Shown: positions 41,205-42,681, counted from the stretch's first letter. The stretch: DNA of 64,000 nt from Macrostomum lignano (GCA_002269645.1 NIVC01000326.1:62001-126000); one strand, 5' to 3'. Numbers and translations: made by a program. The notes: generated from the letters alone by a model not told the origin.

Positions 41205-42356
41205 TTAGTTCGCTGATATTAGTTGGTTCTCATAAAACGAACCCAATATTTCTTCACCGTCCTTATCAGCAATTATATAGGTTGTAGGATTGGTATTTAA
41301 AACTTTACTGATAGTAAATTTCTCACTTATCTTCCAATATCCTTTTCTTCCTTTTTCAAACTTATCTTTCCATTTATAGATATAAACAGAATCACCAACC
41401 TTAAAAGATTTCTTTTTATTTTTTTCAAATTTTCCAAAAGTAACTTTAACGTTTTCAGGATTGTTATAAGCTTGTTGAGGAGTCATCTTTATCGCCGAAT
41501 GATATGAATTGTTATAATCTTTCACTACGTCTGGTAATATTTTTACCCATTTTTGGTTACCATTAAGACTAAACTGAAACCATAATTTCTTACCTAAAGT
41601 TCTATTAAATCTTTCTATTAATGCGTTTTTACTCTCTCCATAAATAGAATAAATTTTATTAATATACTCCCCATTCGCGTCTTTTTTCCTTTCTTGTCCT
41701 TTTTCAAAATGATATAATTTATACATATGAGGATTGTAAAATTCTTTTCCTTCGTCAACACACAAACGTTCGCTTTTTTCTCCAAGACTTCTAAAAGCAG
41801 CAGCAACATCCTCTCCTTTTTTGGATTTCAAAGGAACAGCCCACGCGTATCGAGTAAAACCATCTAATATGGTTAAGATATATTTATATCCTCTTTCGTT
41901 CGGCATCGACATTAAATCAGCATACCAAATTTCATTCTTTTTGAAGTTCATGATTTTTCTATAAAATTTAGGTTTTCGATATTCTTTATGAAGAACCTTA
42001 GCCTTATCATAACTTAGCCCACTACCACTTAATAACAAACATTCGACACAATTATTACCATGTTGGTTGTAATTAATTCCTAAACCAAATTTAACTTTAG
42101 ATTGTAGAATTTTTTTAACCATCCACCTAGTTAATCTTTGCCCTACCGATAATCCCTGCAAGTTATCTAATCCTTGAATCATTTTTTGATCGGCTTCATG
42201 TTTTAATCTTAATGCTTCCTCGGGCGGGTTCTTGTCAGCATCTCTATATGCTAAGTTGTGATAGTATGCTAACCAATCAATCCCATTTATTGGAATTGAA
42301 TCAGATTTTGGAGTATTGTCAGGATTTAATCGGAGATCGAGTCGAGTCAACCCGGC
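41205..42356 (-). CDS. PLA2-integrase fusion, exon 2 (PLA2 catalytic helix plus retroviral-type DDE integrase); 5' boundary 42356, 42355 or 42347
   Basis: TRLDLRL...PINGIDWLAYYHNLAY...KHEADQKM (parvovirus-type PLA2); integrase WYADL, YILTILDGFTRYAW, VDEGKEF and IERFNRTL. Confidence 0.92.
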   Translation of the reverse strand, partial: AGLTRLDLRLNPDNTPKSDSIPINGIDWLAYYHNLAYRDADKNPPEEALRLKHEADQKMIQGLDNLQGLSVGQRLTRWMVKKILQSKVKFGLGINYNQHGNNCVECLLLSGSGLSYDKAKVLHKEYRKPKFYRKIMNFKKNEIWYADLMSMPNERGYKYILTILDGFTRYAWAVPLKSKKGEDVAAAFRSLGEKSERLCVDEGKEFYNPHMYKLYHFEKGQERKKDANGEYINKIYSIYGESKNALIERFNRTLGKKLWFQFSLNGNQKWVKILPDVVKDYNNSYHSAIKMTPQQAYNNPENVKVTFGKFEKNKKKSFKVGDSVYIYKWKDKFEKGRKGYWKISEKFTISKVLNTNPTTYIIADKDGEEILGSFYENQLISAN

Positions 42357-42681
42357 CTTTATACCTTTGCTTTCACAAAGGAGTAGACTGTGTCTTAAGC
42401 TATCATAAGGATTGACTAAGTCCTTCAAGCCCACCAGCGTACAGTCGTTGCATCTCAACCATACTCAAGTCATATGAGGTTAGGTTTTCGATTCACTCTT
42501 GCCCATATATTTATCTTCAAGCTTGTTACCGTTGGGAAGAGGAGTTACCTCTGTTCCTTTGTAATCTTTCGAAAACAAAGTGGTACTTGAAGCTTTAGGG
42601 GATTGAGTGAGCGGCTGGTGTTGCCACTAATAGTGACTAGCAGTAGCTTTGCATCTACCACTCGGGCACAGCTCGAGCTCC
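42348..42681 (-). ncRNA. Putative group I self-splicing intron, about 325-334 nt, no internal ORF
   Basis: P1 CGGGU/GCCCG with U.G at the 5' splice site; P3 CACCAGC/GCUGGUG; P4 ACUCAA/UUGAGU; P7 A(C)GACUG/CAGUCU; J8/7 AAGACA; P9 CUUUGU-GAAA-GCAAAG; candidate terminal G at 42357, 42356 or 42348. Confidence 0.8.

What the first reader, a model, noticed from the sequence alone, without database searches (positions are those of the whole stretch)
42348..42681. Group I self-splicing intron inside a Polinton gene, splitting the PLA2 calcium-binding loop
Seen: on the minus strand a PLA2 motif is split into ELHIPSYNFAG (ends 42682) and TRLDLRL...YYHNLAY by about 330 nt of non-coding sequence. That sequence pairs as a group I core: P1 with a U.G splice-site pair (42686-42682 with 42667-42663), P3 (42620-42614 with 42438-42432), P4, P7 (42448-42442 with 42390-42385), J8/7 AAGACA, and a GAAA-capped P9. 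Established: P7 shows the A-U pair plus bulged C next to the G-binding G-C pair that group I cores require, and group I introns are essentially absent from animal nuclear protein genes. Inference: integrase expression depends on ribozyme splicing. The 3' site is ambiguous. G42357 and G42348 give in-frame products of 425 or 422 aa. G42356 restores G-P-G but needs a 2-nt correction. Novelty needs a literature check, because introns may already be reported from other invertebrate Polintons.
Basis: partly seen in the sequence, partly recalled or inferred. Interest (0 to 1): 0.92.

Follow-up and report, generated by a model that had tools for sequence, protein, structure and literature searches.

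The report
Self-splicing introns in an animal's Polintons
Virus-like transposons in an animal's chromosomes carry self-splicing (group I) introns at the one spot where their gene cannot avoid a short DNA word that their own restriction-enzyme-like nuclease probably cuts, so the intron likely acts as both a shield and a selfish invader.

Summary
Real. The insert at 42681-42356(-) is a group I intron in the PLA2-integrase gene of an 18.3-kb Polinton in an animal genome. It is one of three types at the same site (after the first Gly of the G-P-G loop): A (this window, 24 places), B (about 105-110), C (30, in a second Polinton family). B and C pass the Rfam cut-off; A is divergent (32.7 bits). Helices covary, and intron-less alleles are contiguous. 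New here: type C encodes an Eco47II-like restriction-fold nuclease, which also stands free just upstream of the gene in other copies. GGNCC, the site recalled for Eco47II, is absent from the element (0 seen, 9.6 expected). Gly-Pro codons always spell GGNCC, and the intron splits exactly that word. Best reading: nuclease-driven homing, with the intron as shield. Type A's two extra 3' nucleotides are family-wide (24 of 24), not an error; its splice product is unresolved (early stop, damaged loop, or a second excision). No spliced junction was found in four contig sets. Group I introns are known in protist Polinton-like viruses and giant viruses; ten searches showed none in animal nuclear DNA.

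The parts
40324..58579 (.). Polinton/Maverick, 18,256 bp, begins AGTAGT and ends ACTACT; decayed copy (ATPase-like and PolB genes in pieces)
   Evidence: TIR pair 99% complementary; ends; rve, DNA_pol_B_2 and weak Pox_A32 hits
40318..40323 (+). Left 6-bp target-site duplication GGCACC
58580..58585 (+). Right 6-bp target-site duplication GGCACC
40324..40621 (.). Left terminal inverted repeat (partner 58282-58579), with an inner palindrome
42682..42807 (-). Exon 1 of PLA2-integrase, 42 codons, ending in the first Gly of the G-P-G loop; last U forms the U.G pair of P1
   Evidence: intron-less alleles
42356..42681 (-). Type A group I intron, 326 nt if the terminal G is 42356 (best structural fit); other candidate terminal Gs 42357, 42351, 42348
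42663..42681 (-). P1 loop and internal guide sequence; 5 nt longer than in type B; pairs with the 3' side in two registers (-11.4 and -10.8 kcal/mol)
42623..42662 (-). P2 (42662-42655 with 42646-42639) and P2.1 (42637-42633 with 42627-42623); type C carries its nuclease ORF in the P2.1 loop
42385..42620 (-). Catalytic core: P3 42620-42614/42438-42432, P4 42610-42605/42498-42493, P5abc 42600-42502, P6 42492-42490/42454-42452, P7 42448-42441/42391-42385 with G42446-C42386 as guanosine-binding pair, P8
42357..42383 (-). P9 (42381-42375/42370-42364, GAAA loop) and a 2-bp P9.0 (42383-42382/42358-42357)
42348..42355 (-). Junction stretch of type A: two nucleotides longer than in type B and intron-less alleles; repeats the CGGGU of the 5' splice site and ends in G
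41205..42347 (-). Exon 2: rest of the PLA2-like domain (catalytic HD reads HN in this copy only, 1 of 23 type A loci) fused to the rve integrase
42788..43405 (-). Free-standing HNH/endonuclease-VII-like gene in the nuclease slot upstream of PLA2-integrase; one stop codon inside in this copy; the slot holds an Eco47II-like nuclease in other copies

Best explanation
A family of mobile group I introns has colonised the PLA2-integrase gene of two Polinton families in an animal genome. Shown: group I structure, one shared insertion point between the Gly and Pro codons of the PLA2 loop, intron-less alleles, spread across unrelated flanks, a nuclease gene next to or inside the intron, and absence of GGNCC from the element. 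Inferred: the Eco47II-like nuclease cuts GGNCC; the elements have lost that word everywhere except at the one Gly-Pro that PLA2 needs, where no synonymous change can remove it; the intron splits the word in DNA and is spliced out of the RNA, so intron-bearing genomes resist the nuclease and cut intron-less rivals are repaired from them (collaborative homing in family 1, classic intron-encoded homing in type C). Types B and C should splice to an intact G-P-G loop. Type A most likely splices first at G42356; what follows is open: early stop with integrase supplied by restart or in trans (about 0.35), a neighbouring in-frame G with a damaged loop (0.35), a second excision of two nucleotides (0.15), or little splicing (0.15). 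Step odds: group I identity 0.97, splicing of B/C in vivo 0.8, nuclease-driven spread 0.75, GGNCC specificity of this nuclease 0.65.
For: Rfam: B 61.8 and 65.7 bits (2 of 2 B loci); 28 of 28 scored places in the genome 72-91 bits, all type C by place. Covariation, including exon third position with the guide sequence (A-U in 20, G-C in 8). Intron-less alleles: 3 of family 1 and 19 of family 2, control 0. Same site in family 2. Type A is not one clade on the integrase tree (47 rows, 9 label changes, p-AU 3e-6); diversity at the junction 0.005 against 0.05-0.10 in flanks (23 loci). Slot upstream held a nuclease in 65 of 65 family-1 loci (55 HNH-like, 10 Eco47II-like); free and intron-encoded forms are 65% identical, PF09553 over cut-off, restriction fold with EcoO109I (TM 0.59) and AvaII among the top PDB matches. 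GGNCC 0 against 9.6 expected in 17.66 kb, 123 against 100 in 40 kb of host flank; 0 of 1000 codon shuffles reach zero, mean 12.9; family 2: 0 against 3.2 and 2.9; Gly-Pro 0 in 4429 aa, 7.3 expected; the word is present at the intron site in the 3 intron-less loci counted. Four proteins from other public assemblies are the same nuclease running into a translated intron core; one is free-standing.
Against: No spliced junction in 4 of 4 contig sets, while unspliced type A and B junctions were there (runs only guessed to be RNA, contigs drop rare forms, B exons differ from the window near the junction). Type A scores under the Rfam cut-off. 24 of 38 type B loci do not end in G (22 TA, 1 CA, 1 CT), which is atypical. 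Eco47II = GGNCC is recalled; the paper supplement gave its sequence but not its site, and Foldseek E-values for the restriction enzymes are only 0.015-0.03, with DdmD ranked first. The host DNA is full of GGNCC, so a 5-bp cutter would be toxic unless confined. CANTG and CCNGG are under-used too, so avoidance may have another cause. One intron-less family-1 copy has a further GGNCC in 6.7 kb. The 3 intron-less family-1 alleles carry HNH genes of their own and most intron-bearing copies carry HNH, not the Eco47II-like gene. Copies are near-duplicates and not independent.
Confidence: 0.65

Rival explanations
1. The introns are real and splice, but spread passively by ordinary recombination among the many Polinton copies; the nucleases have other jobs (rival exclusion, host DNA degradation) and GGNCC avoidance is caused by a helper virus or by drift.
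For: Slot type and intron type are reshuffled freely (A with 17 HNH and 7 Eco47II-like, B with 35 and 3); P2 and P5abc are swapped between types; other palindromes are under-used too; chlorovirus restriction enzymes are thought to degrade host chromatin (PMC7019647, passages).
Against: The intron sits exactly inside the only obligatory GGNCC; the same nuclease has entered the intron (type C); occupancy is about 98% in family 1; the low-diversity tract in type A is centred on the junction.
Confidence: 0.22
2. Type A is a dead or dying derivative: it cannot yield a working PLA2-integrase and its carriers are non-autonomous parasites of type B copies. (Compatible with the best explanation for B and C.)
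For: Best structural 3' site gives a stop after 44 codons; the in-frame alternatives change a loop that reads GPG in 84 of 85 environmental loci (search patterns partly demanded it) and 32 of 37 proteins, with no change of spacing in the alignment; unspliced type A contigs cross the splice sites unbroken; J3/4 and P4 depart from the consensus.
Against: All helices are kept by compensatory changes; downstream frame intact in 18 of 23 type A loci against 24 of 35 type B, HD kept in 22 of 23; the guide sequence pairs across the two extra nucleotides (10 pairs); type A has spread to at least five backgrounds.
Confidence: 0.45
3. The insert is a spliceosomal intron, a small transposon, or part of a coding frame.
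For: GT and AG dinucleotides lie near both ends.
Against: 0 of 15 frame-keeping GT-AG pairs keep the loop motif; no duplication of target or terminal repeats against intron-less alleles; stop 8 codons into the insert; Rfam hits and covariation.
Confidence: 0.02
4. The Polintons belong to a protist symbiont or contaminant, not to the animal.
For: Nearest outside relatives of the intron are in giant-virus capsid and RNA polymerase genes; group I introns are known in protist PLVs (PMC12220804).
Against: 6-bp TSD inside host repeats; contigs C506, C952 (type B) and C67 (type C) also carry Wnt exons; over 150 places on contigs up to 0.9 Mb; PLA2 is described for animal Polintons (PMC8502044, passages).
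Confidence: 0.03

Closest known systems
Group I introns of protist Polinton-like viruses (PMC12220804; passages and 2 of 51 supplement rows seen)
   Same: RF00028 introns of 300-380 nt inside endogenous Polinton-like elements
   Different: There: cryptophyte, rhizarian and chlorophyte hosts, in a short gene upstream of the capsid gene, no nuclease linked. Here: animal host, PLA2-integrase gene, three types at one site, linked nucleases
Group I introns of giant viruses (Bodo saltans virus, PMC5871332; chloroviruses, PMC7019647; passages seen; IMG/VR loci L089, L094, L109)
   Same: Protein-gene introns of eukaryotic DNA viruses with HNH nucleases; shared P5abc, P8 and core words; the HNH in L089 is 31% identical to the slot HNH
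   Different: Small integrating element in animal chromosomes; restriction-type nuclease; genome-wide loss of a 5-bp word
Collaborative homing in phages (review PMC3984707, passages seen)
   Same: Free-standing nuclease beside an ORF-less intron, and the same nuclease later inside the intron
   Different: Both stages sit in one animal genome; the nuclease looks like a short-site type II restriction enzyme, not a long-site homing enzyme; target not tested
Type II restriction enzymes Eco47II, EcoO109I, AvaII
   Same: PF09553 match; D...ExK layout; restriction fold; their sites GGNCC, RGGNCCY and GGWCC are recalled, from no call
   Different: No methyltransferase among the 14 element ORF pieces scanned (about ten small ORFs were not scanned); protection seems to come from site loss plus the intron
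Trans excision-splicing by group I ribozymes (PMC2532722, passages seen)
   Same: The ribozyme's terminal G attacks after a P1-bound U and a segment ending in G, as short as one nucleotide, is removed with help of P10; type A's ligated RNA would offer such a substrate
   Different: Described as a non-native, in vitro reaction; a natural use is only a hypothesis here
Group I introns of animal mitochondria (PMC5360047, passages seen)
   Same: Group I introns in conserved parts of protein genes of animals
   Different: Mitochondrial, in sponges, cnidarians and placozoans, with LAGLIDADG nucleases; these are nuclear and viral

Membership tests
Group I intron | Covariance-model match RF00028 above the curated score | tested here: inconclusive
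   Type A 32.7 bits, under 50; types B and C met: 61.8-65.7 and 72-91 bits
Group I intron | [quoted passage not shown] | tested here: met
   U.G in 28 of 28; exon and guide change together
Group I intron | P3-P7 pseudoknot with G-C guanosine-binding pair and bulge; P4-P6 domain; P8; P9 | tested here: met
Group I intron | Terminal omega-G with P9.0 and P10 defining one 3' splice site | tested here: inconclusive
   Type C: G in 3 of 3 read in full; type B: G in 14 of 38, A in 23; type A: four candidate Gs
Group I intron | Removal restores the contiguous allele, no target duplication | tested here: inconclusive
   Met for B and C against intron-less alleles; not met in one step for A (two extra nucleotides)
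Group I intron | Guanosine-dependent self-splicing, spliced RNA | not testable with these tools
   Only contigs could be laid; no junction found
Mobile (homing) group I intron | Nuclease ORF in a peripheral loop or adjacent | tested here: met
   Type C ORF in P2.1; nuclease slot in 65 of 65 loci
Mobile (homing) group I intron | Spread across backgrounds with co-converted flank | tested here: met
   recombination without a nuclease is not excluded
Mobile (homing) group I intron | Nuclease cuts the intron-less site | not testable with these tools
   Indirect only: GGNCC avoidance
Polinton/Maverick | TIRs, 6-bp TSD, pPolB, rve integrase, 15-20 kb | tested here: met
Polinton/Maverick | Capsid proteins and protease | tested here: inconclusive
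   No Pfam hit for the candidate ORFs; not followed up
Type II restriction-modification system | PD-(D/E)xK endonuclease | tested here: met
Type II restriction-modification system | Cognate methyltransferase next to it | tested here: not met
   Slot holds one ORF; none among 14 element ORF pieces of the window; small ORFs not scanned

The most novel reading that the evidence does not exclude
A restriction system without a methylase in an animal virus-like element, whose immunity part is a ribozyme: the element drops GGNCC everywhere and hides the one unavoidable site behind a self-splicing intron (about 0.55 for this half alone). In addition, type A carries a two-nucleotide micro-intron in the 3' exon that the released ribozyme removes in a second, trans-excision-like step (second P1 on the repeated CGGGU, terminal G at 42348, shifted P10), a reaction so far described only as an engineered one; the insert may hide a second nuclease site and would make the gene depend on the intron.
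Probability: 0.15. Interest if true: 0.96.

Novelty: new variant of a known kind. Interest (0 to 1): 0.86.

Why it matters
Reviews seen place animal group I introns only in mitochondria of early-branching phyla and nuclear ones in rDNA of fungi, plants, algae and protists. Here about 160 places in an animal assembly carry them in a protein gene. That implies group I ribozymes can work on viral mRNA in animal cells, that Polintons co-infect and recombine like viruses, and that they exchange selfish elements with giant viruses. The data also catch both proposed stages of the birth of a mobile intron (free nuclease, then intron-encoded) in one genome, and give a sharp test: one small nuclease, one predicted 5-bp site, one intron that splits it. 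Type A could be a natural case of double excision.

Tried and rejected
RNA: no run on record as RNA was listed ('no RNA holder listed'); four guessed-RNA contig sets from four studies showed no joint across the intron. A contig ending exactly at the 5' splice site looked like a splice branch, but a polymorphism 31 nt upstream explains it. Lower depth over the intron is explained by divergence between types and is not used. Spliceosomal reading rejected. No genomic copy joins the exons without the Pro-Gly codons: 3 real matches, all GPG, and 5 chance ones, control 9. Type A core word in viral contigs: 0; close PLA2-integrase relatives there: 0; nuclease in viral contigs and phages: 0. The 6 viral and 80 best of 484 metagenomic PLA2 loci were chosen by intact motifs, so they cannot show introns; they were not scanned with Rfam. 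Of 42 viral loci with the type B word, 40 were scanned and 1 passed Rfam; 4 resemble the introns by BLAST. Two odd type-B word matches were chance (2 of 2). No second intron in the window's element. Host phylum not settled. Single-sequence fold failed (pLDDT 36); NCBIfam and PDB sequence searches gave nothing. Terminal A in coral mitochondrial introns is recalled only; the paper checked had no passage. Earlier findings: three look-ups, nothing. The primary collaborative-homing paper was not held.

Full report
Setting. The finding lies in an 18,256-bp Polinton (40324-58579) with 99% complementary terminal repeats and a 6-bp target duplication. Pfam finds rve integrase, PolB and weak packaging-ATPase matches, several in pieces. 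The assembly (764 Mb) is an animal's: 86 Wnt matches, and three contigs carry both Wnt exons and intron-bearing Polintons (C506, C952, C67). The phylum was not settled. Many loci come in near-identical pairs, so counts below are places, not independent insertions.

The observation. Rfam RF00028 matches weakly (32.7 bits, E 1.3e-6 in 551 nt) and is missed at the curated cut-off and in larger searches. Sister copies decide the matter. All carry an insert after the same GGT, in two types: type A as in the window (24 places) and type B (117 matches of its core word against 10 in the control; two outliers checked were chance). Type B scores 61.8 and 65.7 bits. On 28 of the 38 distinct sequences, 60 pairs give 97.9% pairing, 22 pairs change on both sides, and slid controls fall to 38-50%. 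P4, counted in each type's own register, pairs 6 of 6 in 38 of 38 B and 23 of 24 A loci with wholly different letters. Whole helices (P2, P5b, P5c) occur as swapped compensatory variants inside each type. Three family-1 alleles have no insert and read FAG-PGT-RLDLRL in one 423-aa PLA2-integrase frame. No GT-AG pair keeps the loop (0 of 15).

A third type. Searching the genome with RF00028 gave 28 scored places at 72-91 bits. Twelve were fetched and all were one further type, C, in the PLA2 gene of a second Polinton family (about 59% protein identity), at the homologous site; all 28 are among the 30 places of its core word. Nineteen family-2 alleles are intron-less. Type C is about 870 nt, shares P1, P2, P5abc and P9 with type B, ends in G, and holds an ORF of about 160 codons in the P2.1 loop. 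Its exon codons before the site are those of family-1 type, not those of intron-less family-2 alleles, as expected from co-conversion or adaptation to the guide sequence.

The nucleases. The type C ORF matches RE_Eco47II above cut-off. A 65% identical protein stands free directly upstream of PLA2-integrase in family 1. That slot held a nuclease gene in 65 of 65 family-1 loci examined: 55 HNH/endonuclease-VII-like, 10 Eco47II-like. The window's HNH has one internal stop; its subtype occurs in 13 loci, all type A, but these were gathered with the window as query. A model of the Eco47II-like protein (pLDDT 83) matches restriction-fold nucleases; DdmD ranks first by E-value, EcoO109I has the best TM-score (0.59) and AvaII follows. 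Four proteins from other public assemblies are the same nuclease running on into a translated intron core, and one is free-standing, so the arrangement is not confined to this genome; their hosts are unknown. The nearest intron relatives in viral contigs interrupt giant-virus capsid and RNA polymerase genes, and one encodes an HNH 31% identical to the slot HNH.

The GGNCC link. Eco47II is recalled to recognise GGNCC (EcoO109I RGGNCCY, AvaII GGWCC; none of these sites comes from a call). Gly-Pro codons always spell GGNCC, and all three intron types sit between those two codons. I named the word before counting. It occurs 0 times in the 17.66-kb core (9.6 expected; lowest ratio of 16 interrupted palindromes), 123 times against 100 in host flank; 0 of 1000 codon shuffles reach zero (mean 12.9). 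Family 2 shows 0 against 3.2 and 2.9 in two homologous 7-kb stretches; an intron-less family-1 copy has 1 against 3.3 in 6.7 kb; Gly-Pro is absent from 4429 aa of element ORFs (7.3 expected); environmental PLA2 loci are not depleted (235 against 196). The 15 sites in sister loci lie mostly in clusters that look like inserted transposons or flanks. Against: CANTG (25 against 53.9) and CCNGG (9 against 17) are under-used as well, the host is rich in GGNCC, and most family-1 copies now carry HNH genes.

Mobility. On a tree of 700 nt of the downstream gene (47 distinct rows of 62 loci), type A needs 9 label changes and is rejected as one clade (p-AU 3e-6); one A and one B locus are identical there. 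Among 23 type A loci diversity is 0.005 at the junction, 0.026 in the intron and 0.05-0.10 in the flanks (L013, which has an insertion in the intron, and six duplicate fetches were left out). The intron plus about 30 nt of 3' exon has thus moved as a unit. This fits homing; plain recombination is not excluded.

The type A 3' end. All 24 places have two nucleotides more than B and intron-less alleles. G42356 has the same P9/P9.0 layout as B and C and a 10-pair P10 that spans the extra nucleotides (-11.4 kcal/mol), but leaves a stop after 44 codons; 42357, 42351 and 42348 are in frame but alter a loop that is GPG in 32 of 37 homologous proteins with fixed spacing. After a first splice the RNA would repeat the P1 target followed by two nucleotides ending in G, and the guide sequence pairs with the exon beyond them (-10.8 kcal/mol; 3 of 1123 windows of the ORF do as well; fifth of 144 synonymous spellings; B and intron-less-type spellings -2.3 to -6.1). 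That is the substrate of trans excision-splicing (PMC2532722, passages). The pairing could also be a relic of an older P10 or follow from the palindromic guide and a 5-nt repeat in the exon, so I give double excision 0.15. Type A carriers are no more decayed than type B (18 of 23 against 24 of 35 intact frames), which may only reflect recent arrival. Type B ends in A in 23 of 38 loci, a second oddity.

RNA. Four contig sets, RNA by guess, cover the gene; they hold unspliced type A sequence across the splice sites and unspliced B junctions, and list no joint across the intron. This is against efficient splicing of type A but weak: contigs drop rare forms, DNA may be present, and B junctions would fit the window poorly. 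Splicing remains inferred.

What is known. Ten full-text searches showed group I introns in protist Polinton-like viruses (PMC12220804: passages, 2 of 51 supplement rows), in giant viruses (PMC5871332, PMC7019647: passages), and in animals only in mitochondria of sponges, cnidarians and placozoans (PMC5360047, PMC3984707: passages). Passages of the adintovirus paper (PMC8502044), the nematode Polinton preprint (10.1101/2023.08.22.554363) and the entomopoxvirus PLV paper (PMC11296320) report no such intron.

Verdict. Group I intron: yes. Member of the mobile-intron kind: type C by anatomy, A and B by adjacency. New in host, gene and partner: an animal Polinton, a PLA2 loop, and a restriction-type nuclease whose probable site the element has purged. 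New variant of a known kind, interest 0.86.

Noticed in passing
window 40324-58579: CANTG (25 against 53.9 expected) and CCNGG (9 against 17) are also under-used; Pro-Gly codons of the same loop always spell CCNGG. Other slot nucleases may target these words.
   Followed up: partly
type B loci, e.g. L028, L034, L042, L051: The last intron nucleotide is A in 23 of 38 loci although the G-C guanosine-binding pair is intact.
   Followed up: partly
L059, L060 (P5c-P5a), L206-L217 (P5, P6), window near 42802 in run contigs: Short 30-40-nt hairpin-like inserts with words such as TCGGACTTCGTCCG and CGAACCT recur in intron loops and beside the start codon; possibly a tiny mobile palindrome.
   Followed up: no
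L013 (insertion of about 830 nt inside a type A intron), L026, L037 (upstream): The same GC-richer insertion appears in several Polinton copies, once inside the intron core.
   Followed up: no
window 47983-50028 (+): 681-aa ORF with seven 19-aa repeats, an F5/8 type C domain and a lectin-like end; probable fibre or receptor-binding protein.
   Followed up: partly
window 40361-40545 and 58358-58542; 58139-58236: Each terminal repeat holds a long inner palindrome; a perfect 30-bp inverted repeat lies just inside the right end.
   Followed up: no
window 54695-55501 (-): The PolB piece carries an endonuclease VII domain (PF02945, E 1e-7).
   Followed up: partly
window 38399-40364, 27235-29772, 32241-35552: Host-side mobile elements: the Polinton interrupts a transposase-like region next to a 230-aa ORF; an RT-RNase H retroelement; a P-like transposase in pieces between 75-bp inverted repeats.
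   Followed up: partly
L109 (IMGVR_UViG_3300046327_000283): Giant-virus capsid gene with two group I introns 560 nt apart, one with a nuclease-like ORF.
   Followed up: partly
G000 Wnt matches: Many divergent Wnt genes in groups of two to four near-identical contigs, suggesting haplotype or segmental duplication in the assembly.
   Followed up: no
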